Origin: an uncultured Ectothiorhodospiraceae bacterium
GTDB lineage: Bacteria; Pseudomonadota; Gammaproteobacteria; S012-40
Assembly (NCBI GenBank): GCA_945787125.1
Contig: CALZHW010000004.1
Location: forward strand, 3,139 to 63,451
DNA length: 60,313 bases
Reading direction: 5' to 3'
Shown piece after piece: positions 19,486-33,115 of this stretch (its first letter is position 1; each line of letters starts with the position of its first letter). Made by a program: the position numbers and the translations under genes. Under the pieces are notes generated by a model. The model was not told where the DNA came from. It saw nothing but the letters and a program-made list of their open reading frames with translations, and ran no database searches.

Positions 19486-19487
19486 TT

Positions 19488-20457: not shown

Positions 20458-20748
20458 ATGAAAAATAAGCTAACGCTTGGGAAAACTTTTTGGGTTCTTC
20501 TAATTGCCGCATTTACCACAGGTATGGGTAATGGTAGTGTATTTGGTGCCGCAGTAATGTGTGCAGTAGGTCGCGGACCATACGAAAGCTGGGGTGGATG
20601 GGGAATGGAGTCATATGACCCAACAACTTTTTCTGGTTTTGTAGATTGGATGATGTTTGTGTTTGGTCTTGCTTTCGCTATCATCACAGGTTTGGCTATG
20701 GGCAAACATGGTGAGCTCGAAGCACGTGGCGATAACACAACCTGGTAG
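20458..20748 (+). CDS. two-TM membrane protein (96 aa), first gene of the ccoN-like operon
   Basis: ATG preceded by TGGAGGG. Translation: MKNKLTLGKTFWVLLIAAFTTGMGNGSVFGAAVM...FVDWMMFVFGLAFAIITGLAMG. Confidence 0.55.
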   Translation: MKNKLTLGKTFWVLLIAAFTTGMGNGSVFGAAVMCAVGRGPYESWGGWGMESYDPTTFSGFVDWMMFVFGLAFAIITGLAMGKHGELEARGDNTTW

Positions 20749-20773
20749 ACATTATGAAAGAGGGGGATAATTT

Positions 20774-20866
20774 ATGTTGGCTACAATTGCAGGAACATTC
20801 GGAATTATCTTGGCATTCTCAAGTATGTGGATGTCTTGGTATCTATTGAATAAGATGAACGAATGA
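20774..20866 (+). CDS. 30-aa single-TM peptide, not in the ORF track
   Basis: AGAGGGGG lies 7 nt upstream of the ATG. Translation: MLATIAGTFGIILAFSSMWMSWYLLNKMNE. Sits immediately before the ccoN-like gene. Confidence 0.4.
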   Translation: MLATIAGTFGIILAFSSMWMSWYLLNKMNE

Positions 20867-20917
20867 TTTGTAATCTTATATTTTCTGGGGTTAAATTTAA
20901 CTGGGAGGTGAAGTTTC

Positions 20918-22327
20918 ATGTTGATGAAATATCTCTTCGCCAAGAATGAAGAAATTCCTGCTGGATCGGCAACGATCTTTTTTGGTTTTTCATCCATTTT
21001 TTGGTTTGTAGTAGGGACTGGTTTAGGTTCTTTTAATGCGGCAAAGCTTGCTTTTCCTGACTGGGTAACCGGTACTGAGCTTTTCGCTTTTGGTCACATG
21101 CGTCAAGTGCATGTTTTGGCAGTTATTCTGGGCTGGATTTCAATGGCATTTGGTATGACCATGATGTACATGACTCCCGCCTTAGGTAACACTAAGTTAT
21201 GGTCCGAGAAATTGGGTCTTTGGACAGTGTTCATGTGGAACGTTGGTCTTAGCTTGGGTCTAACACTATTATGGATGGGTATCACATCTGGTCGTGAGTA
21301 TAGCGATCTTATCTGGCCAATCGATTTAGTCGTTATATTCGGCGTATTGTTACCTTTGGGTATCAACGTATGGATGACCATTTCGCATCGTAAAACTCAA
21401 GGTATATACATCACCAACTGGTTCTTTGGTGCTTGTATCTTCATGCTCATGATCGTTTTCTTTGTCGGTAATTCACCAGAATTATTTAATCTGACCGGTC
21501 TGACTGAGGCGTATCTAACGTTTTGGTTTGCTCATAACGTATTGGGATTGTGGATAACGCCAGTTGCAGCAGCAATTGCTTACTACACGATTCCAAAACT
21601 GACGGGTAACCCACTATACTCTCACCGTATTGGACATCTGCATTTCTGGTCTATCATCGCTTTCTATTCAACTCCTGCTTCGCATCACTTAATGTCTGCG
21701 CCATTGCCTGAGTGGTTGAAGTCTTTTGCTTCAGTAGAAGGTGTTTTGATCTTGATCCCAGCAGTGGCATTCGTTGCTAACATTTTGTTAACAATGAAAG
21801 GCAAGTGGAGCTTGTTTGTAGAGAATATTGAAACTAAATTCTCTATTACCGGTGTTCTACTCGCAATTCCATTGAATATGCAAGGTGGATTCCAGCAAAC
21901 ACGTGCGATTAACTGGTATGTTCATGGAACAGGCTGGATAGTTGCTCACGCTCACTTGGCACTGTTAGGAATGTCTAGCTTCTTGGAAGCCGCAGCCGTT
22001 TACTTTGGTTTGCAGCAAATGTTGAGAAGAAAGCTTTATTCTTTAACCTTAGCTAACTTGCATTACTGGTTCTTTATAATCGGTTTCTGCACATACTGGA
22101 TTTCAATGACAATTGCCGGCCTTATGCAGGGTGCAGGTAAAATCTATGAAGTACCTTATATCGACGTAGTTGTAGCAGAGCATCCATACATGATCGCTCG
22201 CTGGGCCGGCGGTACAATGGTATTCACTGGTAATGTGATCTGGTTATACAACATGTGGATGACAGCTCGCGAAGGAACTATTGTTCCATCTGGCCGTTAC
22301 GCACACGAGTTGGCTTACGAGCGTTAA
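20918..22327 (+). CDS. ccoN: C-family (cbb3-type) heme-copper oxidase subunit I, divergent CcoN
   Basis: 469 aa, ~12 TM, collinear with CcoN. Motifs: MRQVHVLAV (helix II heme His), REYSDLIWPID, GIYITNWFFG, FWFAHNVLG (helix VI CuB His), YYTIPKLTGNPLYSHRIGHLHFW, FYSTPASHHLMSAPLPEW (Tyr six residues before the HH CuB pair) and IVAHAHLALLG (HxH heme ligands). GGGAGGTG lies 7 nt upstream. Confidence 0.85.
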   Translation: MLMKYLFAKNEEIPAGSATIFFGFSSIFWFVVGTGLGSFNAAKLAFPDWVTGTELFAFGHMRQVHVLAVILGWISMAFGMTMMYMTPALGNTKLWSEKLGLWTVFMWNVGLSLGLTLLWMGITSGREYSDLIWPIDLVVIFGVLLPLGINVWMTISHRKTQGIYITNWFFGACIFMLMIVFFVGNSPELFNLTGLTEAYLTFWFAHNVLGLWITPVAAAIAYYTIPKLTGNPLYSHRIGHLHFWSIIAFYSTPASHHLMSAPLPEWLKSFASVEGVLILIPAVAFVANILLTMKGKWSLFVENIETKFSITGVLLAIPLNMQGGFQQTRAINWYVHGTGWIVAHAHLALLGMSSFLEAAAVYFGLQQMLRRKLYSLTLANLHYWFFIIGFCTYWISMTIAGLMQGAGKIYEVPYIDVVVAEHPYMIARWAGGTMVFTGNVIWLYNMWMTAREGTIVPSGRYAHELAYER

Positions 22328-22420
22328 GATAAACGTTTTGTAAAACAATATAGTAATTAACTTCTTCTTATCTTCGGGAGTTGTCCCGGAGATAAGAAGG
22401 TTAGGGAGGAGGAATTACAA

Positions 22421-23377
22421 ATGGCCTTTCAAAGATATAAATTCGGTGCAGCAGGCATCGGTTTAATGTTTGGCTTTTCAATGTCAATTACACTTTTTGG
22501 CCCAGCCAATGACTTCCGCTCAGGAGTGTCAACTTGGGTAGGTTTGGATAAGCAATTGTCATTGGGTCGAGTAATCGGATTTTCTTATGAGGATCCTTTG
22601 GTTATAGGTGATGGCAAACCCATTGTCGTTATTTTAGATAAAGATCCAAAGACTGGCGCAGCGATTGATCCACCACAGCGTGCCTATGTCTATTCGGCAG
22701 GAATCAAGTTCTCTCCAGGTGTTAATCACCCAGAGTTGCTTGGTCCAGGTGTGCGGGATTTGAGTGAAGGCAAAGGTCAAATTGCACAAGCAAATATGGC
22801 TACTGGCGCAGTATTCACTATTGGTAAAGACGAGTTCAATGGTGAAGAGCTCGACTATATAGTAAATGCGACGGCAGTTAGTGGTTGGACTCCAGCAGAA
22901 GTCTTATCAGCAGCAGGCGATGAAAATATGCGCTATGTTGGTAAGGGCAAGACAATCTACATTACTGAAGGTTGCTGGTGGTGTCACACGTTATTGCCAG
23001 AGCAAACGCAAGATTGGCAGTTTTTTGGCGCACCCCCGTTCTTAGGTGATATGAATGGTGAGATGCCAACAGCTTTCGGTTCAGACCGAAAAGCACCTGA
23101 CTTGTTGCATGTAGCTTCTCGCAATTCTTCTCGTGAATGGATGACCATGCACTTCTTTAATCCACGCTTGGTGCAGCCAAATTCAATCATGCCACGCTTT
23201 GATTATCTTTGGGGTAAAAAAGACGCTAGTGGGAATACCATTGATTTTAAAAAATGGCGTGCCGATTACACAGCGTACGTAAATGGCAAAACCATTTACC
23301 CACCTGAAGTTCCAGAGCCAGCGCGCACAGCTGAAGTTCGTGCGTTGATTGACTGGGTATTAACATCACTACGATAG
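22421..23377 (+). CDS. ccoO: CcoO/FixO-like monoheme cytochrome c subunit with ~110-aa insertion
   Basis: 318 aa with an N-terminal TM anchor and a single CWWCH. GKTIYITEGCWWCH ... GSDRKAPDLLHVASRNSSREWMTMHFFNPRLVQPNSIMPRF is collinear with CcoO. About 175 residues precede the heme motif, against ~65 in canonical CcoO. Confidence 0.8.
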   Translation: MAFQRYKFGAAGIGLMFGFSMSITLFGPANDFRSGVSTWVGLDKQLSLGRVIGFSYEDPLVIGDGKPIVVILDKDPKTGAAIDPPQRAYVYSAGIKFSPGVNHPELLGPGVRDLSEGKGQIAQANMATGAVFTIGKDEFNGEELDYIVNATAVSGWTPAEVLSAAGDENMRYVGKGKTIYITEGCWWCHTLLPEQTQDWQFFGAPPFLGDMNGEMPTAFGSDRKAPDLLHVASRNSSREWMTMHFFNPRLVQPNSIMPRFDYLWGKKDASGNTIDFKKWRADYTAYVNGKTIYPPEVPEPARTAEVRALIDWVLTSLR

Positions 23378-23389
23378 GGGATTAGTATA

Positions 23390-24028
23390 ATGGGATGGAA
23401 ATTTGATCAACCTCTCTATTGCCTCTCTGATGAGCAAGAGCAAAAAGAGACACTCGAGTTGTGGGAAAAACAAAAGTTTGGTGGATTATCGTCAGGCAAT
23501 AATCGCTTGCCTTTCCCTCTAACCTTTTTGATTGCATTAATTGTAATGACAGCGTTCCTTGTAACTATGCCTATTTGGGGTCAACGCCCTAATGCGCAAA
23601 TTTACACGAGTTTCGTTGCAGCAATGGATGATCCTCAAGTGCAGCAGCTTGCTACACCTGAAGAGAAGATTGCCTATGTTACTCAGCAAGCAATGGCTCA
23701 GGCTGATGGTGTTCTTCAAGGTGCAATTGAAAGACACCCATTGGCGTGGGATGATCTTTTGAATATTGCGCCGCAAATCAAAGAGCTACAAGCTAGCGGT
23801 AGTAAGTATTCTTTGGATAACTACAATGTGGTGGGTGATCGTATTGCGCTTGCCAATTTTGAAGGAAACTTTGTTGAAGGTGGTCATAGAGAGCGTAAAC
23901 AGCCTTGGTGGGATAAAGGTTACACCATTGACGTTTTTTATGTAGCTTACTTCATGATAGCCATAGTATTAATCACTAAGCAGCTTCCACATTTTTCACG
24001 GAAGCCTGACATGTCTAATGCTAAATAA
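23390..24028 (+). CDS. heme-less FixP-N-terminal-like membrane protein (two TM)
   Basis: 212 aa. NRLPFPLTFLIALIVMTAFLVTMPIWGQRP resembles the CcoP N-terminal motif (LPxWWxxxFxxTIxFxxxYxxxYP). No CxxCH. Second TM near the C-terminus. Confidence 0.5.
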   Translation: MGWKFDQPLYCLSDEQEQKETLELWEKQKFGGLSSGNNRLPFPLTFLIALIVMTAFLVTMPIWGQRPNAQIYTSFVAAMDDPQVQQLATPEEKIAYVTQQAMAQADGVLQGAIERHPLAWDDLLNIAPQIKELQASGSKYSLDNYNVVGDRIALANFEGNFVEGGHRERKQPWWDKGYTIDVFYVAYFMIAIVLITKQLPHFSRKPDMSNAK

Positions 24029-24042
24029 TTGGGAGATATCGA

Positions 24043-24189
24043 ATGATTGATTTAGATTACGGCCCTGGTGTGTTCGCTTTGTGGATTGCGGTAACAATAA
24101 TTTGCCCTGCAATATATGGCATCTTTTTTGTTGATGCAAACTGGGAAAAGCACAAAGATGAAGACTCTTCTGAAGACGTTTTTAACTAA
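24043..24189 (+). CDS. 48-aa single-TM peptide (CcoQ-position), not in the ORF track
   Basis: GGGAG lies 7 nt upstream. Translation: MIDLDYGPGVFALWIAVTIICPAIYGIFFVDANWEKHKDEDSSEDVFN. Last ORF before the terminator. Confidence 0.45.
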   Translation: MIDLDYGPGVFALWIAVTIICPAIYGIFFVDANWEKHKDEDSSEDVFN

Positions 24190-24211
24190 TCATTAGTTTC
24201 ATCGAGTAAGG

Positions 24212-24240
24212 AAAGCCGCTCTTTTTAGAGCGGCTTTTTT
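24212..24240 (+). terminator. rho-independent terminator closing the ccoN-like operon
   Basis: GCCGCTCT-tttt-AGAGCGGC followed by TTTTTT. Confidence 0.85.
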
Positions 24241-24296
24241 GATTAATTTATAGTAGACTATTTGTCTGTAATTTGAGTCAGAGTTTATTGAACAAA

Positions 24297-24623
24297 ATGT
24301 TAGATATAATATCCAATGTGATTGAGCTTATCTTTTCAAATGCACTCGGCTACATACCGCAGCTATTGGCAGAAGGTAATAAATATGTATTTGGGCTTGA
24401 CATGAGTATTGATAGTCTCAGGTCAAGGGAATTTAGTGTATATATCTTTATATTTTTAATATTGTCGCTTATTTTATTTTGCTACATTATTTACTTGTAC
24501 TTACCCAAAAAACTATCTTCGTTGAAAACCGGAGAAAAAGTTATGTTTGGTGCACTGATATTTGGTGTTATAGCAGCTGTGATCATGGGATACATACAAT
24601 TGATTGAAGGCTATCTAATTTAG
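24297..24623 (+). CDS. membrane protein (about 108 aa, two C-terminal TMs)
   Basis: ORF 24273..24623, with the first ATG at 24297. Contains FSVYIFIFLILSLILFCYIIYLYL and MFGALIFGVIAAVIMGYIQLI. The start is uncertain. Confidence 0.4.
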   Translation: MLDIISNVIELIFSNALGYIPQLLAEGNKYVFGLDMSIDSLRSREFSVYIFIFLILSLILFCYIIYLYLPKKLSSLKTGEKVMFGALIFGVIAAVIMGYIQLIEGYLI

Positions 24624-24643
24624 ATTTAGGTTGAGGAGTTACA

Positions 24644-24925
24644 ATGATCGAGTGGATTGAGAGTTTACCAGATGGATGGACGATATATTTGTGGCTGGTT
24701 GTAGCAGCTATGATTTTAGTTGGCGCCGGTTTTATGCTTCGCTGGGCAGCCAAAAACGACCAATTTGACGAAGATATCAAATACGTGATATTTGACGCCG
24801 ATGATAAAGATAAAATGGAGCCCGAAGAATACGCGAAGTATGAGGAAGTCATGAAAGATCAAACGAGTGCGCGTAAAAAATTCTTGTCAGAGAAAGCTGC
24901 AGAAACTAAAGCAAATAAAAAATAA
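24644..24925 (+). CDS. ccoS: CcoS/FixS-like cbb3 oxidase maturation protein with extended acidic/basic tail
   Basis: Single TM followed by LRWAAKNDQFDEDIKYVIFDADDKD, matching the FixS signature W.(A/L).(K/R)(S/N)(G/D)Q(F/Y)D(D/E) ... I(L/F).DD. 93 aa, longer than typical. Confidence 0.65.
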   Translation: MIEWIESLPDGWTIYLWLVVAAMILVGAGFMLRWAAKNDQFDEDIKYVIFDADDKDKMEPEEYAKYEEVMKDQTSARKKFLSEKAAETKANKK

Positions 24926-24927
24926 AT

Positions 24928-25419
24928 ATGCGAAAAGGCGAAAAAATCATAGTTGTTGCGATGCTGGCATCGGTTGGGTTACTGGCCTGGATGAAAGAAA
25001 AAAAATCATCAATTGATGATGACAATCTAGACGTACCATTTTATTCAACAGCGACCAAGGAGGTAACTGATCGGGCAGCAAAGACAATGCATGATATAGG
25101 CTGTCGAAAATGTCATAGCTTATGGGGTGTGCGTGATTTATCACAAGCGGTTCCTGCGCCGGCATTAGACGGAATGGGCATGTTTCGAGATGAGGAATGG
25201 CTTTATACCTATTTTTCAGCCGAAAATCCGCAAGAAATTTTACCTTCGCGATTGAAACCTGAATATCGCATGCCCTCTTTAGCCTCATTAAGTGAGGAAG
25301 AAAGACGAAATCTAGCAAATTACATGGCTAACTTAAAACTGCATGACTGGTTTTTTCAAGAAGCCAAAGAGGCAAGATACGAAAAGTTAACCGGCAAGGA
25401 CTACCAGCCTGATGATTAA
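24928..25419 (+). CDS. membrane-anchored monoheme cytochrome c, FixO-like
   Basis: 163 aa with an N-terminal TM and one CRKCH. PAPALDGMGMFRDEEWLYTYFSAENPQEILPS...YRMPS parallels the CcoO C-terminal pattern. Confidence 0.65.
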   Translation: MRKGEKIIVVAMLASVGLLAWMKEKKSSIDDDNLDVPFYSTATKEVTDRAAKTMHDIGCRKCHSLWGVRDLSQAVPAPALDGMGMFRDEEWLYTYFSAENPQEILPSRLKPEYRMPSLASLSEEERRNLANYMANLKLHDWFFQEAKEARYEKLTGKDYQPDD

Positions 25420-25885
25420 TTTTGGTGGGATAAAGCTTATAGATGTCGCTTGGATGATTATGGCGATAGCCGTTGGGATAACTATCATCTATGTTGGGGA
25501 GAGAGTTTTAAATGTCCGATTAGCTGTATTTTACGGAATTGAAACATTTAATCCTCGGTGGGTCTTGGCGCTAATCGTTGTGCCACTATTTGCAGGCATG
25601 GTTATTTCATTTATATATGGTCTTGGTGGTAAAATGCTGGCTCATTTTGCACCAATACCTATTCAAATTTATCACTATATGCACCTGGATAGTATGATAT
25701 TGCCGGAGGGTGTTACGATGTTACCCGTTGGTTATTGGATTTTAATTTTAATTGTTGCAGTAGAGGCCGCAGCGGTTGGTGGTTTTATTGGTGAAGTCGT
25801 AATAAAAAGAACATATGGCCGACGCCCCAAGCATTTGGTGCATAAGCGTTATCGAACAAAAGAGATGAAAGAGTCAGAAAGCTAA
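25412..25885 (+). CDS. four-TM membrane protein
   Basis: 157 aa. Overlaps the previous gene by 8 nt. The loop contains IYHYMHLDSM (His/Met-rich). Basic C-terminus. Confidence 0.5.
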   Translation: MINFGGIKLIDVAWMIMAIAVGITIIYVGERVLNVRLAVFYGIETFNPRWVLALIVVPLFAGMVISFIYGLGGKMLAHFAPIPIQIYHYMHLDSMILPEGVTMLPVGYWILILIVAVEAAAVGGFIGEVVIKRTYGRRPKHLVHKRYRTKEMKESES

Positions 25886-25886
25886 T

Positions 25887-26954
25887 ATGAAATTTAAATC
25901 ACAACACGCCAAGCGCATATTAACACCAGATGAAATAGCGATCCGTAAGCGGTATATTGGAGCAACATTTGTAAGCTGCATCGTCTTGGCATTAATTGCT
26001 GGAACTATACATGTCTTGGAATTAGGCGCCAATCGGATGCAGGAATTACGTGATAAAGCCGGGTATGATCTGGAAGATGAGCATACCCGCATACGTGCAG
26101 CCGGTGAAGATCTCTTCAGAAACGTATTGCATGAGCGCGGGGTAACTCATACGGTCACTTATAACTCAGAAGAAGCTAGTGGGTTGTTGCCGGTTAACGA
26201 GTGGTTGCGACTGGAAACCATGGCCTTAGTACCTGCTGGTGAGTTTACTATGGGTACCGATAGTATTAAAACGGATGCGCAAAACCGTCCTGCACATATT
26301 GTCAACCTACCTGCTTATGAAATAGATAAATATACAGTTACCAACGCACAATATGCACGTTATGTTGCCGCAACAGGTTATCGAGTACCGCTTAACTGGA
26401 GCAAGGGGCGGTTCAAACCAGCGTTGGCAGTACATCCGGTCACCATGGTTTCATGGTTTGATGCAAAAGCCTACTGCGAATGGAACAACAAAAGAATGCC
26501 GACCGAAGCCGAATGGGAAAAAGCAGCGCGCGGAACCGATAGTCGCCGTTGGCCCTGGGGTAATGTAATGGATGTGAAAAAACTAAATACTTACTATAGT
26601 GTCGGCGCTACTTCGCCAGTACATGCATACCCGGAAGGCGCTAGTCCGTATGGTGTTGTGGACATGGCGGGTAATGTCATTGAGTGGGTTGCTGATAATT
26701 TTGAACCCTATCGTGATACTGAGGCACCAAAAATGATTTTTGTCGCAAAAAAACAAATTGTTTCAGATGATAAAGACGATCGTAACAAAAAGATTGCTAA
26801 GATTGTAGAAACAGACGAAAAGTACAAGTCTATGCGTGGCGGCTCCTGGAAAGGAGATCCATTTTCCACCTCTTCATTTCACAGGGGGTATTCATGGCCC
26901 AATTTAACATCTGACTTTTATGGGTTCAGATGTGCGAGAGATGCAGGCTCCTAG
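25887..26954 (+). CDS. membrane-anchored FGE-sulfatase/SUMF1-domain protein (lacks the FGE catalytic Cys pair)
   Basis: 355 aa with an N-terminal TM. Motifs: VPAGEFTMGTD, PAHIVNLPAYEIDKYTVTNAQYARYVAATGY, HPVTMVSWFDAKAYCEWNNKRMPTEAEWEKAARG, GNVIEWVAD, RGGSW and GFRCARD. The segment between RGGSW and GFRC has no Cys. Confidence 0.8.
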   Translation: MKFKSQHAKRILTPDEIAIRKRYIGATFVSCIVLALIAGTIHVLELGANRMQELRDKAGYDLEDEHTRIRAAGEDLFRNVLHERGVTHTVTYNSEEASGLLPVNEWLRLETMALVPAGEFTMGTDSIKTDAQNRPAHIVNLPAYEIDKYTVTNAQYARYVAATGYRVPLNWSKGRFKPALAVHPVTMVSWFDAKAYCEWNNKRMPTEAEWEKAARGTDSRRWPWGNVMDVKKLNTYYSVGATSPVHAYPEGASPYGVVDMAGNVIEWVADNFEPYRDTEAPKMIFVAKKQIVSDDKDDRNKKIAKIVETDEKYKSMRGGSWKGDPFSTSSFHRGYSWPNLTSDFYGFRCARDAGS

Positions 26955-27005
26955 TGCTTGGGTGAAAATAGAGTATCGTCGGTTCATTATATTGGGAGAG
27001 ACTGG

Positions 27006-27245
27006 ATGAAAAAGATTTATTTATTAATTTTAAGTATGGCAACGTTTTTGTTGTTACCTTTGAGTGCCAGTGCCGCTACTGACAGTTATCGTTGGCTGCA
27101 CGTTACGATTGATACGCCCTGGGCGATTTTTGTTTTCTTATTGCCAATGGTTCTATTCCCCGCTATTTTAATGGCAATTCTTTATTGGAGGTTTTCAGGT
27201 AAGAAAACCCCGACGAATAATTTAAAAATCAAAGAAGAAAAATAG
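27006..27245 (+). CDS. small secreted/anchored membrane protein (79 aa)
   Basis: GGGAGAG lies upstream of the ATG. Signal peptide MKKIYLLILSMATFLLLPLSASA, then one TM (WAIFVFLLPMVLFPAILMAILYW). Confidence 0.45.
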   Translation: MKKIYLLILSMATFLLLPLSASAATDSYRWLHVTIDTPWAIFVFLLPMVLFPAILMAILYWRFSGKKTPTNNLKIKEEK

Positions 27246-27257
27246 CTGGGGGTTAAA

Positions 27258-27611
27258 GTGCGGAGTTTTTTTCAGTATTCCAGAGTCATCTTGTTGTTCA
27301 TGTTACCATTTGTTGTTTTCTTTTCTCAGCCTGCTTTTTCGAATGAGCGGGCTGATGTCCTGAAGTCTTTTCATGGCTCACAACGTGGTGAGATGATCGA
27401 ATCTTATGACGAACAGCAGTTTCAACATAAAGTTATGTTTGTTATGGGTATAACTTTGTTAGTATTCATTTTACTCACCGCTGGCTTTGGTATATCAATG
27501 GCCATGCTGGGTAAAGACGTCTTTGTTCCTCATATGATCTGTGCAGGTATATCAGTATTTTTAAGCATAGGGCATGCAATAGTAGGTATTGTTTGGTTTT
27601 TTCCTTTTTGA
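27258..27611 (+). CDS. membrane protein with signal peptide and two His-containing TMs
   Basis: 117 aa, GTG start as listed. Contains QFQHKVMFVMGITLLVFILL and VPHMICAGISVFLSIGHAIVGIVWFF. Confidence 0.45.
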   Translation: MRSFFQYSRVILLFMLPFVVFFSQPAFSNERADVLKSFHGSQRGEMIESYDEQQFQHKVMFVMGITLLVFILLTAGFGISMAMLGKDVFVPHMICAGISVFLSIGHAIVGIVWFFPF

Positions 27612-27623
27612 TGAGCTGAATTC

Positions 27624-30236
27624 ATGAGTGTTAAACCAGCTCAAAGTAATGCCCTGCTTTTCTGGCTGGTGTGCATTATTTATTTTTTCACCGGTCTGAC
27701 TGCGTTAGGTTATGAAGTGCTGTGGGCTCGCATTTTATCAACCTTATTCGGCGTCAGTATTTTTGGCGTAGTTGTTACTATAAGCGCGTTCCTTGCGGGT
27801 CTGGGGGTCGGTAGCATAGTCGGTACGCGATTTTTAAAATTGATCCAGTCACCTTTGCGGCTATTTGCTGTATTAGAGATACTCGTCGCCCTATTTGCTT
27901 TCAACCTCTCTACAATTTTGACAGCACTTGATGTCAGTTTATCATCGTTTTCAGCAGAAAATTATTCGCAATGGCTGTTTGTTCAGGCGGTGGCGACTTT
28001 CGGTTTGATGTTCATTCCTGCTTTTGCTTTAGGTGTGGGTTTTCCTTTAATTCTTGCAACTCTTAAAAATAGCAAAATCAATGTAGGCACCATATATGCG
28101 CTGAACACACTCGGCGGTGTGGTAGGCGCTTTGTTGCCGCTCGTTTTATTGCCATTAGCGGGCTGGACTGTTTCCGTAAGGTTGCTTGCAATTTTTGCAA
28201 TTTTCATGGGTCTGTGTGCTTTTGCTATTAGTTTCATGTTGCCGAAGAAGTTACGCGCAGCATCAATTGTCACTCACCAGCCTTTGCCCAAACCGGGCTA
28301 CTCGGTTTTATTAATTTATGCCTGTGTTGGCGCTGGTGCAATCATGTTGCAAATAGCCTGGGCCAGATTATATGGCATGATATTGCTGCGAACCGAATAC
28401 GTGATGGCTATCATTTTAGCGACATTTTTAGTAGGAATCGGACTGGGAAGTTTATTGGCTGCGCGCGTTAAAAATGTAAAGTGGTTGGTATTATTGCCAA
28501 TGCTGGTTTGTGTTAGCGGCTTTTTAAGCTTGTACACCTTGCCATTAATGTCTGAGTGGGTGGAAGCCATAGAATATATATCGATAAGTCAGGCGATGTT
28601 AATTCAAGGTGGGTTGGTTGCCTTATTAACGTTGCCTGCAACCTTGGCTTTTGGTGCGTGGTTTCCGATGTTGGTATCTGTTTTTGGTGAAAAAGAAACA
28701 TCGAGTTCTTCACTCTACGGATTTAATGCAGTGGGCGCGGCATTGGGTGGACTGTTGGCAGGTTTTGTCATTTTGCCGTCACTTGGAACCGCACCTTTAA
28801 TTCTAATATCAATGGCGCTGATTTTGTTTGTCAGTCTTTATTGGATAAAGCAGAGCTATTATAAAGTAATGGTACTTGCCATGCTGGTGCTCGGGATCCC
28901 GGTGTTGCAACTACCCACGATTGAAAAATTATTGCCTGCAACTCATCAAGATGCGAAAAATCTATTTTTCTTTGAGGATGCAATGTCCTTAACCCATGTA
29001 GTCGAAAAAGCGAGTGGAGAGAGAATTTTGCTCGCTGATTTGCAGCGGATGGATGCGTCTACTGATCCTACTGCGGTTAGGGTTCAGAAAAATCAAGCGC
29101 GCTTACCTTTGTTGTTACATCCTAAACCAGAGAAAGTTTTGTTTCTTGGTTTGGGTACGGGAATAACAGCAGCTGGATCATTAGCGATTGAAAACCTAGA
29201 GCGAACATCGGTTGAGCTTTCCAAGGGGTCAATATGGGCAGCTGAAAATTATTTTCAACGTGTGAACGGCGATATTGGCCAAACTATGAAAATCATTCGC
29301 GATGATGCAAGACGATTTTTAAAAGCGGGGGACGAAAAATTTGACATTATTGTGGGAGATTTATTTCATCCGGATTTGATTGGTCGAAGTGAACTTCTGT
29401 CTTTACAGCAATTTGAACGCGCAAAAAACCGATTGGCGGTAGATGGCGTGTTTGTGCAATGGTTAGCGCTTAATCAGTTTGATTTAGAGACATTGAAAGT
29501 TGTGCTTGCTACTTTTCAGCAGGTGTTTCCAGATGCAGTTTTATTTATGGATGGCTTTCGTTTGGGTATGCTCGGTGTTAACGGCGAATTTTATGGCATT
29601 GAGGCGATTAATTCCCAACTAAAGTCACTTTCACCCGCCTTAGCTGGCGAACTAACCGGTGGCGAAGGCCTTTGGAGCTGGGCGGCACGTTACTGGGGTC
29701 CTATAAGAAATGTAGAGAATGCTCAAATTCAGGATGAATGGGCGCCAGTGATTGAATTCCAATTGCCAAAAGCTAAATTTAATCGACAGAATCATTTGCA
29801 TGTTTTGCTTGATTTTCTGTTAGTTAATCGTGACTCAATAACTCAAGCGAAAGAAATTATGCGAGTTACCGACGGGCAGGCTCCATACTTTGAGCAAGCA
29901 AGAATGGCGAGCGAAATGTATTATCAGAGTTGGATGGCTGCATTTTCCGGCAAAGACTCTGATAGTCAACAATTGTTAACCATGGCCTATGCAAATAATC
30001 CAGATGATCAATGGGTAAGTTTTGGGCTCGCAGATGGGATGTTTGTCAGTCTGGATCAGGCAATGAGCCAAGGTATTGAAAAAAAAGCGGCGCTATTGCG
30101 TATTTTAGAGGTGCGGCCTGACCATATTGAGGCTTTGAAGGCTTTACGCCTGCTCTATCTTGCGCAAGGTGAAAAGTCTGAAGCAGACAGAATATCCAGT
30201 GATATTATGAGCTTATCACCATTGGAGATATTTTAG
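27624..30236 (+). CDS. fused MFS-like membrane domain / spermidine-synthase-like (class I SAM-fold) / TPR protein
   Basis: 870 aa. About 12-14 TM spans in the first ~440 aa. Then VLFLGLGTGITAAGS (GxGxG nucleotide loop) and FDIIVGDLFHPD (compare spermidine synthase D(V/I)IIxD). TPR-like C-terminus (RPDHIEALKALRLLYLAQGEKSEA). Confidence 0.75.
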   Translation: MSVKPAQSNALLFWLVCIIYFFTGLTALGYEVLWARILSTLFGVSIFGVVVTISAFLAGLGVGSIVGTRFLKLIQSPLRLFAVLEILVALFAFNLSTILTALDVSLSSFSAENYSQWLFVQAVATFGLMFIPAFALGVGFPLILATLKNSKINVGTIYALNTLGGVVGALLPLVLLPLAGWTVSVRLLAIFAIFMGLCAFAISFMLPKKLRAASIVTHQPLPKPGYSVLLIYACVGAGAIMLQIAWARLYGMILLRTEYVMAIILATFLVGIGLGSLLAARVKNVKWLVLLPMLVCVSGFLSLYTLPLMSEWVEAIEYISISQAMLIQGGLVALLTLPATLAFGAWFPMLVSVFGEKETSSSSLYGFNAVGAALGGLLAGFVILPSLGTAPLILISMALILFVSLYWIKQSYYKVMVLAMLVLGIPVLQLPTIEKLLPATHQDAKNLFFFEDAMSLTHVVEKASGERILLADLQRMDASTDPTAVRVQKNQARLPLLLHPKPEKVLFLGLGTGITAAGSLAIENLERTSVELSKGSIWAAENYFQRVNGDIGQTMKIIRDDARRFLKAGDEKFDIIVGDLFHPDLIGRSELLSLQQFERAKNRLAVDGVFVQWLALNQFDLETLKVVLATFQQVFPDAVLFMDGFRLGMLGVNGEFYGIEAINSQLKSLSPALAGELTGGEGLWSWAARYWGPIRNVENAQIQDEWAPVIEFQLPKAKFNRQNHLHVLLDFLLVNRDSITQAKEIMRVTDGQAPYFEQARMASEMYYQSWMAAFSGKDSDSQQLLTMAYANNPDDQWVSFGLADGMFVSLDQAMSQGIEKKAALLRILEVRPDHIEALKALRLLYLAQGEKSEADRISSDIMSLSPLEIF

Positions 30237-30292
30237 CGGGTGTTTCTTGACGTTATTAAGCCGCTTTAACTAATTTAGTTTTATTCAGGCAT

Positions 30293-30321
30293 AAAAAAAC
30301 CCGACTAAGTCGGGTTTTTTT
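30293..30321. terminator. bidirectional rho-independent terminator
   Basis: AAAAAAACCCGAC-taa-GTCGGGTTTTTTT, with A-run and T-run flanks. Serves the + operon and the small minus-strand ORF. Confidence 0.9.
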
Positions 30322-30336
30322 GAAGCTATCCAGCAA

Positions 30337-30606: not shown

Positions 30607-31953
30607 GTGAATGCCTGTGGTAGTATAAATCCTATGAAAGCTAACGAATCACTCTCTAAAATACCGGTTTATACGGCGGGCAAGATCGGTCGCGCAGATA
30701 AATTAATATGGCTAAGAAAATCCAGTAAATCGATTGCTATATTAGTTATTATTTTGTTGCCTATTCTGGGTATATTTCGTATTGATGTGTCATCAGGATT
30801 TGTAGTGCTCGATCGGCAAATCTGGTTTTCGGATTTCAATCTGGTATTTGGTCTCTGGTTAGCGCTGGCATGTACGTTTATCCTGTTTTATTCCACCGTT
30901 GGCACTGCTTTTTGTGGATGGGTTTGCCCACAAAACACATTCTCAAATATTATGGACTCGATTACCAAGCGTTTATTAGGTAAAAGAGCGGCGATCGATT
31001 GGGAAGAAAAAAGCTCAAAAGTAGCTGCGAAAAAAAATACGGCACTTAATTGGGCTCAGCTAAGTATCGAAACATTGCTGCTATCGATGCTGGTTTCAAT
31101 TATACCTATAATCTATTTTATTCCGCCCGCTGCGATTTGGTCTTTTGTTACGCTGCAACCACATCCCATGATATCTGGATCAATTTATTGGATATATGCG
31201 GTGTTTGTGTTTATTTCCATTGTTAACCTCGCGGTTGTAAGGCATTATTTTTGTCGTTATATGTGCGTTTATCGAATGTGGCAGTTTCTTTTTAGAACGA
31301 CTGATTCACTCCATCTGGATTACGATGAAACGCGAAAAGCGGATTGCGAGAAATGCAATTATTGCGTGACATCTTGTATGGTAGATATCGATCCACGCGA
31401 TACATCAACCTTTGATAGTTGTACTAACTGCGGTGCATGTATCAGCGCATGTGACTCCATCCACACTAAAGAGGATGAAAAAGGTGGCGCTGGAAGAGGT
31501 CTGTTAAGTTTTCGTTTCGGCAAACGACGCAAGAAAGAAAATCTGGCGCAGCGCTCGATTGCCACTCTGAAAAATCGTGTTGGATGGGTGTTGCCTGTCT
31601 GGGCACTGGGTATGGCTTTATTTGTTTGGGGTCTGGTTGATTATAATCCCTATCACTTAGCGGTATATAAGTCAGAAAAAGACCAAGGTGAACAAATTGA
31701 CGAATATCGTGTCCATCTTGCTAATAAAGTATACGAAGAAGGTTTTCTTAAGATATCAGTTTCAGGACTGGCAGCCAATGAATATACGTTGACTGACTCT
31801 TCTGTCACATTAGCTGAAGCAGGACGTTATGATGCTTATATTAATATAAGTAATCAATTGAAACCTGGCCTCTACAGTTTTGTTGTCATTGCTGAATCAA
31901 GAGATGGCTGGAAAAGTGAAGCACGTATACAGCACTTTGTTAATAATGGATAA
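30607..31953 (+). CDS. ccoG: CcoG/FixG-like 4Fe-4S membrane protein (cbb3 oxidase accessory, cupric reductase family)
   Basis: 448 aa. Motifs: FCGWVCPQ, CRYMCVYR, and two ferredoxin motifs (CEKCNYCVTSC and CTNCGACISAC). C-terminal beta-rich domain. The start could be GTG 30607 or ATG 30634. Confidence 0.75.
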   Translation: MNACGSINPMKANESLSKIPVYTAGKIGRADKLIWLRKSSKSIAILVIILLPILGIFRIDVSSGFVVLDRQIWFSDFNLVFGLWLALACTFILFYSTVGTAFCGWVCPQNTFSNIMDSITKRLLGKRAAIDWEEKSSKVAAKKNTALNWAQLSIETLLLSMLVSIIPIIYFIPPAAIWSFVTLQPHPMISGSIYWIYAVFVFISIVNLAVVRHYFCRYMCVYRMWQFLFRTTDSLHLDYDETRKADCEKCNYCVTSCMVDIDPRDTSTFDSCTNCGACISACDSIHTKEDEKGGAGRGLLSFRFGKRRKKENLAQRSIATLKNRVGWVLPVWALGMALFVWGLVDYNPYHLAVYKSEKDQGEQIDEYRVHLANKVYEEGFLKISVSGLAANEYTLTDSSVTLAEAGRYDAYINISNQLKPGLYSFVVIAESRDGWKSEARIQHFVNNG

Positions 31954-31957
31954 CGTT

Positions 31958-32407
31958 ATGAATCATGATATAAGTGACAAAAAGAGTATTAAAAAAGCCA
32001 ATAAAACGCCAGGCGCAGTAGATGATACTGAGTGGGGTGAAGTCTCAGATGATAATTACGGTTATCAGGATGACCAGGAACGGCGTGATAAACGCGGGCT
32101 GGAAGATTGGGAAATGGTCACTAGTATGAGTGAATCGCAAGTCTCAATTCCCTATTGGTTTATTGCCATTTTTATAGTCTTGCTCATCGTGGCAATTGGT
32201 CTGACTTTCCCATTTTGGGGTAATCGACCGGGGTTTGAGCGGCCGTTTTTTGATTGGGGTATTCCGATGGGCGCTGCCTGGGTCATTGTTATGAGCTTTA
32301 TCATTTATTACTTTGTTGACTTAAGGTATGTGTTGCAGGACAAGAAAAAAAAGCAGCTTGAGGAGCAGAAAGGCAATCAGGCTGATAAAGATAGTGAGGC
32401 TTCATGA
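31958..32407 (+). CDS. heme-less FixP-N-terminal-like membrane protein
   Basis: 149 aa. The ATG is 4 nt after the ccoG-like stop. VSIPYWFIAIFIVLLIVAIGLTFPFWGNRPG resembles the CcoP N-terminal domain and the paralog at 23390. No CxxCH. Confidence 0.5.
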   Translation: MNHDISDKKSIKKANKTPGAVDDTEWGEVSDDNYGYQDDQERRDKRGLEDWEMVTSMSESQVSIPYWFIAIFIVLLIVAIGLTFPFWGNRPGFERPFFDWGIPMGAAWVIVMSFIIYYFVDLRYVLQDKKKKQLEEQKGNQADKDSEAS

Positions 32408-32715
32408 AAAAAATGACAGTATGTTTGATGGCTCTGGGTTTGCTTTTTGCGCTATCCGCCTGCGGTAACAATTCGTCGATATCAAGTATCAGTAGCAAGG
32501 CATTACCTGAAGAAAACTCTGCGGGCGCGAAATTACTGAAGGCTAACTGTAGTCAGTGCCACGGTGTGCCCAGTGCAACGGATCACGTTGCAGCGCATTG
32601 GCCAAACGTCATTGAGCGGATGCAAAGACATAGAATTAAAAATGCATACTACCCGGTAAAAGATCAAGACAAGCAAATAATAACAGCGTATTTGCAAAAA
32701 CATGCGGCAGAATAA
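32404..32715 (+). CDS. monoheme cytochrome c lipoprotein
   Basis: 103 aa. Lipobox LSAC, one CSQCH, and a downstream Met (VIERMQRH). Overlaps the previous stop by 4 nt. Confidence 0.7.
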   Translation: MKKMTVCLMALGLLFALSACGNNSSISSISSKALPEENSAGAKLLKANCSQCHGVPSATDHVAAHWPNVIERMQRHRIKNAYYPVKDQDKQIITAYLQKHAAE

Positions 32716-32716
32716 T

Positions 32717-33115
32717 ATGAAAACTGTTTTATTATCATTGATTTTAATGACTACTATTGCCTGTACAGGGAAAATTCCAACGACACCTCCGCAGACGTGG
32801 GGAGACTATACCTTCAGATTGGAGACCAGGCCGCCTGCGCCAATCAAAGGTATGAATGAGTTTCTCCTGATTGGCAATTTCGAAAAACGCAAAAGAGCCG
32901 TTGATTTGTTAGTGTTTTTTCGTGTTGGGCCAACCGGTAAATGGAGTCAGGCCATACAGGATGGTCATTCTGGTGTCTATCGTCGCGCGTTGAGAGTTAA
33001 TGATGTTGCGCAAGATGTTTTATATGTACATGTTAAGAAGGAAGAGGAAGAAAAGGTTTTTGAATTCCCGCTGAATTACGCTGAATTAGGCGAGTTTGTC
33101 CCCCTCGGGCAGTGA
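32717..33115 (+). CDS. FixH/YtkA-like lipoprotein
   Basis: 132 aa from the ATG 1 nt after the cytochrome stop. Lipobox TIAC. LETRPPAPIKGMNEFLLIGNF...GHSGVYRRAL resembles the FixH/YtkA beta-sandwich pattern. Confidence 0.45.
   Translation: MKTVLLSLILMTTIACTGKIPTTPPQTWGDYTFRLETRPPAPIKGMNEFLLIGNFEKRKRAVDLLVFFRVGPTGKWSQAIQDGHSGVYRRALRVNDVAQDVLYVHVKKEEEEKVFEFPLNYAELGEFVPLGQ

What the first reader, a model, noticed from the sequence alone, without database searches (positions are those of the whole stretch)
24273..30236. Tightly coupled operon linking CcoS-like and FixO-like genes to an FGE/SUMF1-like protein and a fused MFS/spermidine-synthase/TPR protein
Eight ORFs are packed with gaps of 52 nt or less or overlaps (24623/24644, 24925/24928, 25419/25412, 25885/25887, 26954/27006, 27245/27258, 27611/27624) and end at a strong terminator. 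The operon mixes a CcoS/FixS-like maturation factor and a FixO-like monoheme cytochrome with two unexpected proteins.

1. A membrane-anchored FGE-sulfatase-domain protein. It has the fold signature (HPVTMVSWFDAKAYCEW, RMPTEAEWEKAARG, GNVIEWV, RGGSW, GFRC). It lacks the Cys pair that true copper-dependent formylglycine-generating enzymes use, since there is no Cys between RGGSW and GFRC. It would therefore belong to the non-FGE branch, as for NirV/PvdO/EgtB-type proteins.
2. An 870-aa protein that fuses a 12-14-TM MFS-like domain, a spermidine-synthase-like SAM-fold domain (LGLGTG, DIIVGD) and TPR repeats. To my knowledge this widespread architecture has no established function.

Three further small membrane proteins carry His- or Met-rich segments (IYHYMHLDSM, VPHMICAG...IGHAIVG). 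The genetic coupling suggests these enzymes act on the oxidase or its cofactors, through copper or heme handling, a covalent modification, or a polyamine-type adduct.
Basis: partly seen in the sequence, partly recalled or inferred. Interest (0 to 1): 0.7.

Follow-up and report, generated by a model that had tools for sequence, protein, structure and literature searches.

The report
Accessory operon of a CcoP-less cbb3 oxidase
These eight genes are a real operon that always sits directly downstream of an unusual cbb3-type respiratory oxidase in iron-, sulfur- and nitrite-oxidising bacteria, and it includes two enzyme-like proteins (one shaped like a formylglycine-generating enzyme, one like a spermidine synthase) whose role with the oxidase has not been described.

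Summary
The eight ORFs, their tight spacing and both flanking terminators are confirmed. The operon is the second transcription unit of a conserved locus for a CcoP-less cbb3 (C-family) oxidase, probably the "distal" type. Upstream lie ccoN, a ccoO with a ~150-aa insertion, a haem-less CcoP-N-terminus-like protein and a ~45-aa subunit.

Linkage holds in both directions. Practically all 80 genomes found through the FGE-like protein (Beta- and Gammaproteobacteria) carry ccoN-ccoO plus the operon in the same order. In 80 metagenome contigs found through ccoN alone, 46/46 with enough downstream DNA carry the FGE-like gene and 39/39 the SpeE-like gene.

- Gene 2 is a genuine CcoS/FixS.
- Gene 3 is a membrane-anchored monohaem cytochrome c, not clearly FixO.
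- Gene 5 has the FGE fold, a conserved membrane anchor and no catalytic Cys pair.
- Gene 8 belongs to "fused MFS/spermidine synthase" (NF037959). It keeps the SpeE fold but lacks the dcSAM-specific Asp.
- Gene 4's His-rich segment is not conserved. Gene 7's histidines are.

Most likely reading: oxidase-dedicated biogenesis factors and/or auxiliary subunits. The chemistry of genes 5 and 8 is unresolved. I found no paper describing this gene set.

The parts
24297..24623 (+). Gene 1: small two-TM membrane protein (the longest ORF starts at TTG 24273). The conserved core is G-D-SIEGLRS ... LKTGEK-TM ... GYLF.
   Evidence: Weak, sub-threshold FixQ hit (15.8 bits). Orthologues in about 76 loci.
24644..24925 (+). 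Gene 2: CcoS/FixS homologue (single TM plus the RWAAKNEQFDEDIKYVVFD motif), with a C-terminal extension.
   Evidence: Pfam FixS 22.8 bits against a cut-off of 23.1. 14 of 15 family members match FixS. Conservation.
24928..25419 (+). Gene 3: membrane-anchored monohaem cytochrome c (CRKCH, Met ligand region YxMPS). It is a paralogue of the upstream cytochrome at 17828-18457.
   Evidence: Pfam Cytochrom_C 23.4 bits. Conservation. BLASTP to the 17828-18457 protein, E 0.003 with a shared (K/R)xGEK+TM motif.
25412..25885 (+). Gene 4: polytopic membrane protein with three to four hydrophobic segments and no family assignment. It is absent from about 10 related loci.
25887..26954 (+). Gene 5: type-II membrane-anchored FGE-sulfatase-fold protein. 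The domain is predicted to be periplasmic, the Cu-binding Cys pair is absent, and the TM anchor is highly conserved (R20, A26, T27, H42, V43, G47, R50 invariant).
   Evidence: Pfam 8.7e-54. 32-orthologue alignment. AF2 and Foldseek to FGE/ToxD/CalU17/PvdO/EgtB. Only one full-length representative at 50% clustering.
27006..27245 (+). Gene 6: small protein with a signal peptide or N-terminal TM, the conserved DSYRxLHVTIDTPW motif and a TM (the longest ORF starts at TTG 26958).
27258..27611 (+). Gene 7: small membrane protein with a signal-like N-terminus and two TMs. The TMs carry conserved His residues (KH; FVxHMIxAG; HAxVxIVWFFPF).
   Evidence: Weak cytochrome b561-like hits only.
27624..30236 (+). 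Gene 8: 870-aa protein. It has 12 long TM helices (2 x 6) plus an ambiguous 13th hydrophobic segment, a complete SpeE-like fold (about 445-700) and an all-helical repeat region (714-864).
   Evidence: NF037959 98.1 bits. AF2 pLDDT 86.6. Foldseek to aminopropyltransferases, TM-score 0.60-0.67 on the target. Residue comparison with T. maritima SpeE. Topology statistics.
30292..30322 (.). Bidirectional intrinsic terminator that closes the operon. A 42-aa minus-strand ORF converges on it.
24209..24240 (+). Intrinsic terminator or attenuator between the oxidase structural operon and this operon. Its position is conserved in related loci.
   Evidence: A hairpin plus T-tract lies at the equivalent place in 67 of 70 loci by a loose scan.
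20458..24190 (+). Upstream structural operon: p96 (20458-20748), a 30-aa ORF (20774-20866), ccoN-like (20918-22327), ccoO-like with a ~150-aa insertion (22421-23377), a haem-less CcoP-N-terminus-like protein (23390-24028) and a 48-aa subunit (24044-24190).
30607..33115 (+). Downstream module, usually nearby in relatives: CcoG-like 4Fe-4S protein (30607-31953), a membrane protein whose N-terminus is paralogous to that of the 23390-24028 protein (31880-32407), a small cytochrome c (32404-32715) and a lipoprotein (32702-33115).
16922..19943 (+). Upstream module, often conserved: a dihaem cytochrome c, a monohaem cytochrome c, a 180-aa CcoN C-terminal-like protein, a thioredoxin-like CxxC protein and a 151-aa membrane protein.

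Best explanation
The eight genes are the dedicated accessory operon of a CcoP-less, probably 'distal-type', cbb3 (C-family) haem-copper oxygen reductase. The locus has two transcription units.

Unit 1 encodes the core enzyme: p96, a 30-aa ORF, ccoN, ccoO, a haem-less CcoP-N-terminus-like protein and a ~45-aa subunit. A conserved intrinsic terminator follows it. Unit 2 (genes 1-8) is therefore probably expressed at a lower level, in the way ccoGHIS follows ccoNOQP in canonical systems.

Proposed roles in unit 2:
- Gene 2 (CcoS) mediates insertion of haem b/b3 and CuB into CcoN.
- Gene 3 is a membrane-tethered monohaem cytochrome c that passes electrons to CcoO, standing in for the missing CcoP haems.
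- Genes 1, 4, 6 and 7 are small membrane partners, either assembly chaperones or small subunits. Gene 7's intramembrane histidines may bind a metal or haem.
- Gene 5 docks in the membrane through its conserved anchor and presents a periplasmic FGE-fold domain. That domain cannot be a copper/Cys formylglycine-generating enzyme. It most likely works as a binding or maturation module for a periplasmic part of the enzyme.
- Gene 8 is a SpeE-derived enzyme or scaffold on a 12-13-TM domain. If it is catalytic, it more likely uses SAM than dcSAM, acting on an amine-bearing target.

Shown here: gene identities, folds, residue losses, two-way linkage and the conserved two-unit organisation. Inferred: every functional role, including that of CcoS (by homology), and the claim that genes 5 and 8 serve the oxidase.
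For: Forward linkage. Of 80 species genomes found through the FGE-like protein, practically every locus long enough has ccoN (76-97% identity), ccoO, the 212-aa protein and genes 1-8 in the same order and strand. They span Ectothiorhodospiraceae, Chromatiaceae, Thiotrichaceae, Ca. Tenderia, Gallionella, Sideroxydans, Ca. Nitrotoga and Ferrovaceae.

Reverse linkage. Of 80 metagenome contigs chosen by ccoN alone, 46/46 with at least 4.8 kb downstream carry gene 5, and 39/39 with at least 8 kb carry gene 8.

The gene 5 orthologous group is narrow. It has one full-length representative among 1.84 billion 50%-identity cluster representatives.

The upstream enzyme is a true C-family oxidase. It aligns end to end with P. 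stutzeri CcoN1 (E 4e-59), and the positions matching the haem ligands, the CuB ligands and the cross-linked Tyr are retained.

Gene 2 is FixS. A terminator is conserved in position between the two units. The TM anchor of gene 5 is invariant at seven positions, which argues for specific intramembrane contacts. A CcoG-like gene lies just downstream.

Distal ccoN/ccoO sit at about the 98th-99th expression percentile in most conditions in Sideroxydans ES-1, so the enzyme class is physiologically central (PMC8788666).
Against: - There is no functional, proteomic or transcript evidence for any of genes 1 and 3-8.
- Linkage was tested only within one tight ccoN clade (at least 76% identity). More distant relatives were not sampled.
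- One Gallionella locus (L055) lacks gene 8 next to gene 7. Gene 4 is missing from about 10 loci. So not all members are indispensable.
- Which side of the membrane carries gene 8's SpeE-like domain is unresolved, so no coherent joint chemistry with the periplasmic gene 5 domain can be stated.
- No recognisable CcoH or CcoI is present, so the analogy with ccoGHIS is incomplete.
Confidence: 0.55

Rival explanations
1. Most or all of the eight products are stoichiometric structural subunits of a larger oxidase complex or supercomplex. The FGE-fold domain and the SpeE-like/helical-repeat domain would be catalytically dead scaffolds, for example a periplasmic docking platform for electron donors. 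The small membrane proteins would fill the roles of CcoQ, CcoM or CcoP.
For: - Gene 5 is conserved about as well as ccoO (52-71% against 53-84%), and its TM anchor is highly conserved.
- Genes 1 and 3 and the upstream cytochrome share a (K/R)xGEK+TM anchor motif.
- FGE-fold domains are known to act as pure binding or structural modules, as in PorK/GldK (PDB hits) and the Tsi3 immunity proteins (bioRxiv 10.1101/2021.05.21.445229).
- The enzyme lacks CcoP and must take up electrons some other way.
Against: - A conserved strong terminator separates these genes from the core subunits.
- The operon contains CcoS, which in canonical systems is an assembly factor rather than a subunit (established knowledge).
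- The SAM-fold ligand positions in gene 8 are invariant (G509, G511, G513, E531, D579). That is unexpected for a dead scaffold.
- Gene 4, and in one locus gene 8, can be missing.
Confidence: 0.25
2. Genes 5-8 form an independent envelope or small-molecule module that is only co-located with the oxidase. For example, a SAM-derived amine compound could be made by gene 8, exported through its own membrane domain and processed in the periplasm by the FGE-fold protein. This would loosely resemble the pairing of an FGE-like sulfoxide synthase with a methyltransferase in ergothioneine and ovothiol synthesis.
For: - The best NCBIfam hits of gene 5 are EgtB, SenA and OvoA (sub-threshold, FGE-like domain only).
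- Gene 8 joins a transporter-like domain to a SAM-fold enzyme.
- Genes 6-8 follow a 51-nt gap after gene 5.
Against: - Linkage to ccoN is complete in both directions, while the outer flanks vary and rearrange.
- Gene 5 lacks the DinB domain of EgtB and OvoA, and its core sits between CcoS/cytochrome c genes and genes 6-8 with 1-nt and overlapping junctions.
- Its orthologous group is not seen outside this context in the loci examined.
Confidence: 0.12
3. The annotations are literally correct: gene 5 is a formylglycine-generating enzyme that activates a sulfatase, and gene 8 is a spermidine synthase.
For: Pfam FGE-sulfatase 8.7e-54 and Spermine_synth 3.5e-9. Public records name homologues in this way.
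Against: - No Cys lies in the RGGSW...GFRC loop in any of 32 orthologues. FGE needs two Cys there to hold Cu(I) (papers cited).
- No sulfatase gene is called in related loci or found among the window ORFs that were scanned.
- Gene 8 scores 40.8 bits against a cut-off of 249.55 for speE. Its GGGDGG motif is GLGTGI, and the second active-site Asp is an invariant His.
Confidence: 0.02

Closest known systems
ccoGHIS (fixGHIS) assembly cluster downstream of ccoNOQP in canonical cbb3 oxidases
   Same: It is a separate gene set immediately downstream of the structural genes. It contains a CcoS/FixS homologue (gene 2), and a CcoG-like polyferredoxin lies just beyond it (30607-31953).
   Different: No recognisable CcoH (FixH) or CcoI (Cu P-type ATPase) is present. 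Instead there are a monohaem cytochrome c, four small membrane proteins, an FGE-fold protein and a SpeE-like polytopic protein. The served enzyme lacks CcoP.
'Distal' cbb3 oxidases (Ducluzeau et al. 2008, as used for Sideroxydans and the Gallionellaceae in PMC8788666 and PMC10734462)
   Same: A ccoN-ccoO enzyme without ccoP, found in Gallionellaceae and Sideroxydans and highly expressed. The related loci retrieved here include Sideroxydans, Gallionella and Ca. Nitrotoga MAGs.
   Different: Identity with the 'distal' subtree is inferred, not tested against that phylogeny, because the paper was not available. The papers I could read discuss only ccoN and ccoO, not the accessory genes.
NirV (FGE-sulfatase-domain protein encoded next to the copper nitrite reductase gene nirK)
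   Same: It is a non-FGE member of the FGE fold that is genetically coupled to a copper-containing respiratory enzyme, and its role is unknown.
   Different: NirV occurs in only about 61% of nirK genomes and is not required for NirK maturation (PMC4770552). Gene 5 accompanies its oxidase in every informative locus here, and it has a conserved membrane anchor. Direct homology beyond the shared domain was not tested.
Formylglycine-generating enzyme (SUMF1/FGE)
   Same: The fold is the same (Foldseek TM-score on the target about 0.6, about 26% identity; Pfam match over the whole domain).
   Different: The two Cu(I)-binding Cys are absent. In their place is a subfamily-specific loop, SWK-x-DPFST...HR, modelled with low confidence. 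The protein also has an N-terminal TM anchor.
Polyamine aminopropyltransferases (SpeE) and NCBIfam NF037959 'fused MFS/spermidine synthase'
   Same: Gene 8 passes the NF037959 cut-off. Its soluble domain has the complete SpeE fold, including the N-terminal beta-domain. The ribose-binding Glu (E531) and the catalytic Asp (D579) are kept.
   Different: The acidic residue of GGG(D/E)G that binds the dcSAM amine is an invariant Thr. The second Asp is an invariant His. There is an extra C-terminal helical-repeat domain. The family itself has no experimentally known function that I could find.
CcoA (MFS copper importer needed for cbb3 biogenesis in Rhodobacter capsulatus, PMC3266609)
   Same: It is a 12-TM MFS-type protein that is genetically tied to cbb3 biogenesis.
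   Different: Gene 8's membrane domain has no conserved Met/His pairs. The invariant residues are Y30, W34, E85, R248, M252 and R256-T-E-Y259. No sequence relationship was detected. The comparison is an analogy only.

Membership tests
Formylglycine-generating enzyme (catalytic FGE) | FGE-sulfatase fold | tested here: met
   Pfam PF03781 8.7e-54 over 110-351. Foldseek hits to human, T. curvata and S. coelicolor FGE, E about 1e-13.
Formylglycine-generating enzyme (catalytic FGE) | Two active-site cysteines that coordinate Cu(I) | tested here: not met
   No Cys lies between RGGSW and GFRC in any of 32 orthologues. The requirement for the Cys pair is taken from the papers cited.
Formylglycine-generating enzyme (catalytic FGE) | A sulfatase substrate gene in the neighbourhood | tested here: not met
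   No sulfatase family is listed among the called genes of related loci or among the window ORFs that were scanned. The rest of the genome is unknown.
CcoS/FixS | Small single-TM protein that matches the FixS profile and signature | tested here: met
   The window protein scores 22.8 bits against a cut-off of 23.1, just below it. 14 of 15 family members match at E <= 0.01 (best 1.3e-5). The motif RWAAKNEQFDEDIKYVVFD is conserved.
CcoS/FixS | Required for cofactor insertion into CcoN | not testable with these tools
   This needs genetics and spectroscopy.
FixO/CcoO (claimed for gene 3) | Match to the FixO profile | tested here: not met
   There is no FixO hit at E <= 0.1 for the window protein, only Cytochrom_C at 23.4 bits. 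A 'faint' precomputed FixO hit exists in one orthologue. The clear FixO is the upstream gene at 22421-23377.
NCBIfam NF037959 fused MFS/spermidine synthase | Score above the curated cut-off | tested here: met
   98.1 bits against a cut-off of 40.
Spermidine synthase (SpeE, TIGR00417) | Score above the equivalog cut-off | tested here: not met
   40.8 bits against a cut-off of 249.55.
Spermidine synthase (SpeE, TIGR00417) | Acidic residue in GGG(D/E)G for the dcSAM amine, and both active-site Asp residues | tested here: not met
   GLGTGI aligns with GGGDGG. D579 is kept, but the second Asp is replaced by H582. T512 and H582 are invariant in 32 orthologues. The roles of these residues are recalled from the SpeE literature.
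TPR repeat proteins | Match to TPR profiles | tested here: inconclusive
   There is no Pfam TPR hit at E <= 0.1. AF2 gives paired helices at 714-864 with high confidence.
MFS transporters | 12 TM helices in two bundles of six, and an MFS profile match | tested here: inconclusive
   AF2 shows 12 long TM helices, and the two halves each hit the same membrane-SpeE models. A precomputed Pfam MFS_1 hit is listed for only 2 of 120 homologues. The top 50 Foldseek hits were all SpeE-type.
cbb3-type (C-family) oxidase, for the upstream enzyme | CcoN with the haem b/b3 and CuB ligands and the helix-VII Tyr, plus a CcoO subunit | tested here: met
   The alignment to 3mk7_A retains all ligand positions. 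The FixO domain is present in the next gene. The score is below the ccoN equivalog cut-off (221.8 against 583), so this is a divergent subfamily.
cbb3-type (C-family) oxidase, for the upstream enzyme | Dihaem CcoP subunit | tested here: not met
   The third gene has no CxxCH. Its orthologues give only sub-threshold hits to FixP_N, the Pfam domain for the CcoP N-terminal membrane anchor (15-19.5 bits against a cut-off of 24.9).
ccoGHIS assembly set | CcoG, CcoH, CcoI and CcoS all present | tested here: not met
   CcoS-like and CcoG-like genes are present. No FixH match and no P-type ATPase were found among the scanned ORFs of the window.

The most novel reading that the evidence does not exclude
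Genes 5 and 8 are active enzymes that carry out a previously unknown modification dedicated to this oxidase. Gene 8 would transfer a SAM-derived alkyl group, and the periplasmic FGE-fold protein would perform an O2-dependent step. The target would be a subunit, a cofactor or an annular lipid of the CcoP-less cbb3 enzyme. This would be a new class of haem-copper oxidase maturation chemistry, found in iron-, sulfur- and nitrite-oxidising autotrophs.
Probability: 0.12. Interest if true: 0.85.

Novelty: new variant of a known kind. Interest (0 to 1): 0.55.

Why it matters
This CcoP-less cbb3 oxidase appears to be the main, very highly expressed terminal oxidase of environmentally important chemolithoautotrophs, including Gallionella/Sideroxydans iron oxidisers, Ca. 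Nitrotoga nitrite oxidisers, sulfur-oxidising Gammaproteobacteria and the electroautotroph Ca. Tenderia. How it is assembled and how it receives electrons without CcoP is unknown.

The result gives a defined, universally linked set of eight candidate genes. It also gives a first functional context for two widespread orphan architectures: the non-FGE membrane-anchored FGE-fold proteins and the 'fused MFS/spermidine synthase' family. Their function now becomes testable against a simple phenotype, namely oxidase assembly and activity.

Tried and rejected
- An FNR/Anr box (TTGATNNNNATCAA, up to 1 mismatch) was not enriched and has no site near either operon.
- Rfam and tRNA scans of the window found nothing.
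- Seven literature searches (cbb3 with formylglycine, SUMF1, spermidine synthase, Tenderia, Zetaproteobacteria, nirV, distal cbb3) found nothing on these accessory genes. Reading of candidate papers also found nothing. Ducluzeau et al. 2008 was not available.
- A CcoA-like copper importer role for gene 8 is rejected as a homology claim. The membrane domain has no conserved Met/His motif.
- The all-against-all hhalign probabilities are inflated, because some family files contained cross-hits from paralogues. I rely on the direct BLASTP comparison instead.
- Pfam scans of 118 orthologues of the small proteins gave no assignment for genes 1, 4, 6 and 7 beyond noise.
- Foldseek did not place gene 5 in any particular FGE-fold branch. 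It gave no information on gene 8's membrane domain.
- The side of the membrane on which gene 8's soluble domain lies could not be settled. The positive-inside rule supports N-in with 12 TMs, but the 13th segment remains ambiguous.

Full report
**Observation**

Gaps range from 1 to 51 nt, and there is one 8-nt overlap.

A strong intrinsic terminator lies just upstream at 24209-24240. Another lies 56 nt after the last stop, at 30292-30322. Both fold far better than shuffled controls, with z-scores of -5.1 and -6.1 and 0 of 200 shuffles as good. The second hairpin has A and T tracts on both sides, and a 42-aa minus-strand ORF converges on it.

The TTG start of gene 1 is doubtful. The source assembly (GCA_945787865.1) calls 24297, and it also calls 27006 and 27300 for genes 6 and 7. 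Only the C-terminal ~75 residues of gene 1 are conserved.

**Surroundings**

The operon is not isolated. Upstream, after a ~1-kb gap, lies a second + strand operon:
- A conserved 96-aa membrane protein (20458-20748) and a 30-aa ORF.
- A 469-aa CcoN.
- A 318-aa CcoO with a ~150-aa insertion before its haem domain.
- A 212-aa protein without a haem motif.
- A 48-aa TM protein.

CcoN aligns end to end with P. stutzeri CcoN1 (3mk7_A, E 4e-59). The positions aligned with its haem-ligand motifs, CuB-ligand motifs and helix-VII Tyr are all retained (P. stutzeri numbering H60, H207, Y251, H257, H258, H345 and H347, from memory). It is therefore a C-family oxygen reductase, although it scores well below the ccoN equivalog cut-off.

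Orthologues of the 212-aa protein give sub-threshold hits to FixP_N, the Pfam domain for the membrane anchor of CcoP. There is no dihaem CcoP. The 48-aa ORF is conserved (MIDxDxxP-TM-YSFFVD) in about 60 loci.

Downstream of the finding lie a CcoG-like polyferredoxin and three small proteins. Further upstream lie a dihaem cytochrome c, a monohaem cytochrome c, a 180-aa protein homologous to the C-terminal third of CcoN, a thioredoxin-like CxxC protein and a 151-aa membrane protein.

**What each gene of the operon is**

- *Gene 2* is a CcoS/FixS homologue. The window protein scores 22.8 bits against a cut-off of 23.1. Of 15 family members, 14 match FixS, and the motif RWAAKNEQFDEDIKYVVFD is nearly invariant.
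- *Gene 3* is a membrane-anchored monohaem cytochrome c. It scores only as generic Cytochrom_C and is a distant paralogue of the cytochrome at 17828-18457. The label 'FixO-like' belongs to the upstream gene.
- *Gene 4* has no family assignment. Its His-rich segment is not conserved, and the gene is absent from about 10 loci, where gene 3 abuts gene 5.
- *Gene 6* has a conserved DSYRxLHVTIDTPW motif followed by a TM.
- *Gene 7* has conserved histidines in and near its two TM helices.
- *Gene 5* has a basic N-terminus, one TM helix and an FGE-sulfatase domain, which should therefore face the periplasm.
  - In 32 orthologues there is no Cys between RGGSW and GFRC. Instead there is a family-specific SWK-x-DPFST...HR loop, which AlphaFold2 models with pLDDT below 50.
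  - Foldseek confirms the fold but shows no preference among ToxD, CalU17, FGE, PvdO and EgtB/OvsA.
  - The TM anchor has seven invariant positions, including H42.
- *Gene 8* passes the NF037959 cut-off.
  - Its model (pLDDT 86.6) has 12 long TM helices, a short 13th hydrophobic helix, a complete SpeE fold and a helical-repeat tail.
  - Against T. maritima SpeE, the motif GGGDGG becomes GLGTGI. The ribose-binding Glu and the first catalytic Asp are kept, and the second Asp is an invariant His.
  - From what I recall of the SpeE and putrescine N-methyltransferase literature, loss of that acidic residue argues against dcSAM and for SAM, if the domain is catalytic at all.
  - The positive-inside rule strongly supports an N-in, 12-TM core (K+R 15.8 against 3.8). 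The 13th segment leaves the side of the soluble domain open.

**Linkage**

The FGE-like protein has many close relatives (at least 55% identity), all from Gamma- and Betaproteobacterial metagenome bins.

*Forward test.* A scan of one genome per species found relatives in 351 of 185,579 genomes. The best 80 include Ectothiorhodospiraceae, Chromatiaceae, Thiotrichaceae, Ca. Tenderia, Gallionella, Sideroxydans, Ca. Nitrotoga and Ferrovaceae. In practically every locus long enough, ccoN (76-97% identity), ccoO, the 212-aa protein and genes 1-8 occur in the same order and orientation. The outer modules are often present but sometimes inverted or absent.

*Reverse test.* I chose 80 metagenome contigs by ccoN alone (78-98% identity). 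All 46 with at least 4.8 kb downstream carry gene 5, and all 39 with at least 8 kb carry gene 8.

Against 1.84 billion 50%-identity cluster representatives, only one hit (P0243, 360 aa, 55% identical, covering residues 9-353) is a full-length counterpart of gene 5. The orthologous group is therefore narrow and, as far as sampled, confined to this context.

There are exceptions. One Gallionella locus has a 2754-aa ORF where gene 8 should be, and gene 4 is absent from a subset of loci.

**Organisation**

A hairpin followed by a T-tract lies 150-250 nt after the stop of the 212-aa gene in 67 of 70 loci by a loose scan, and most of these are long GC-rich stems. The split into a structural unit and an accessory unit is therefore itself conserved. 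It resembles ccoNOQP followed by ccoGHIS.

**Interpretation**

The best-supported reading is that this is the accessory operon of a CcoP-less cbb3 oxidase. The oxidase is very probably the 'distal' type distinguished in Sideroxydans and the Gallionellaceae. In Sideroxydans ES-1 its ccoN and ccoO are at about the 98th-99th expression percentile in most conditions (PMC8788666, PMC10734462). Assignment to that subtree is an inference.

By homology, CcoS points to cofactor insertion. By position and architecture, gene 3 is a candidate electron entry point. The conserved anchors of genes 1, 3 and 5 suggest contacts within a membrane complex. Whether the products are assembly factors, substoichiometric partners or true subunits cannot be decided from sequence.

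Gene 5 cannot be a Cys/Cu formylglycine-generating enzyme. The window and the related loci also show no sulfatase. Gene 8 is unlikely to be a spermidine synthase.

A joint chemistry of genes 5 and 8 on the oxidase remains possible but has no direct support. It would resemble the pairing of an FGE-like domain with a methyltransferase in thiohistidine synthesis.

**Comparison with what is known**

The closest systems are:
- ccoGHIS, which shares the position and the CcoS and CcoG homologues but has no counterpart here for CcoH or CcoI.
- NirV next to nirK, another non-FGE FGE-fold gene beside a copper enzyme. NirV is optional and present in about 61% of nirK genomes (PMC4770552).
- FGE and SpeE themselves, which share the fold, but the defining catalytic residues were tested here and are not met.
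- NF037959, of which gene 8 is a member and which has no known function.

In seven full-text searches and the papers I read, I found no description of this accessory gene set. I therefore rate it a new variant of a known kind: a cbb3 oxidase locus with an undescribed, universally linked accessory set. It is of moderate to good interest because it is directly testable.

Noticed in passing
window 18450-18992 (+): A 180-aa, 4-5-TM protein is homologous to the C-terminal third of CcoN (BLASTP E 5e-15 to residues 321-450) and has an H-x-H motif. It is conserved in most related loci next to a monohaem cytochrome c, a thioredoxin-like CxxC protein and a 151-aa membrane protein. Some relatives have a second copy on the opposite strand downstream (L001 16560-17075, L003 17823-18350). 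Its function is unknown.
   Followed up: partly
window 24209-24240 and the equivalent position in L001-L083: The terminator between the oxidase structural genes and the accessory operon is conserved in position across Beta- and Gammaproteobacteria. Its stem often contains a (A/G)TGCCGC(T/C)C ... G(A/G)GCGGCA(T/C) core, and the stems differ between loci. It could be a regulated attenuator rather than a simple terminator.
   Followed up: partly
window 20458-20748 and 20774-20866 (+): Two small ORFs lie directly upstream of ccoN. The 96-aa membrane protein is conserved in 70 of 84 and 74 of 80 related loci. The 30-aa TM peptide was seen as a called gene in relatives. They are probably the first genes of the oxidase operon.
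   Followed up: partly
window 24044-24190 (+): A 48-aa single-TM ORF after the 212-aa gene is conserved in about 60 loci (MIDxDxxP-TM-YSFFVD).
   Followed up: yes
window 23390-24028 and 31880-32407 (+): The 212-aa third gene of the oxidase operon and the 175-aa gene after the CcoG-like gene share an N-terminal motif plus a TM (BLASTP E 1e-5). Orthologues of the former give sub-threshold FixP_N hits. They look like haem-less relatives of the CcoP membrane anchor.
   Followed up: partly
window 30337-30465 (-): A 42-aa TM ORF converges on the operon's terminator. Similar peptides are encoded in 29 and 18 of the two sets of related loci.
   Followed up: partly
L055 11274-20742: In one Gallionella MAG, gene 7 is followed by a 2754-aa ORF instead of the SpeE-like gene 8. 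This is the only locus seen without gene 8 in place.
   Followed up: no
window 16922-17698 (+): A 258-aa c4-type dihaem cytochrome c is conserved near the cluster in about half of the relatives. It is a possible soluble electron donor to the CcoP-less oxidase.
   Followed up: no
window 22421-23377 (+), residues ~30-170: The CcoO homologue carries a well-conserved ~150-aa insertion between its TM anchor and its haem domain. The insertion has no family assignment and is a candidate interaction surface for the periplasmic accessory proteins.
   Followed up: no
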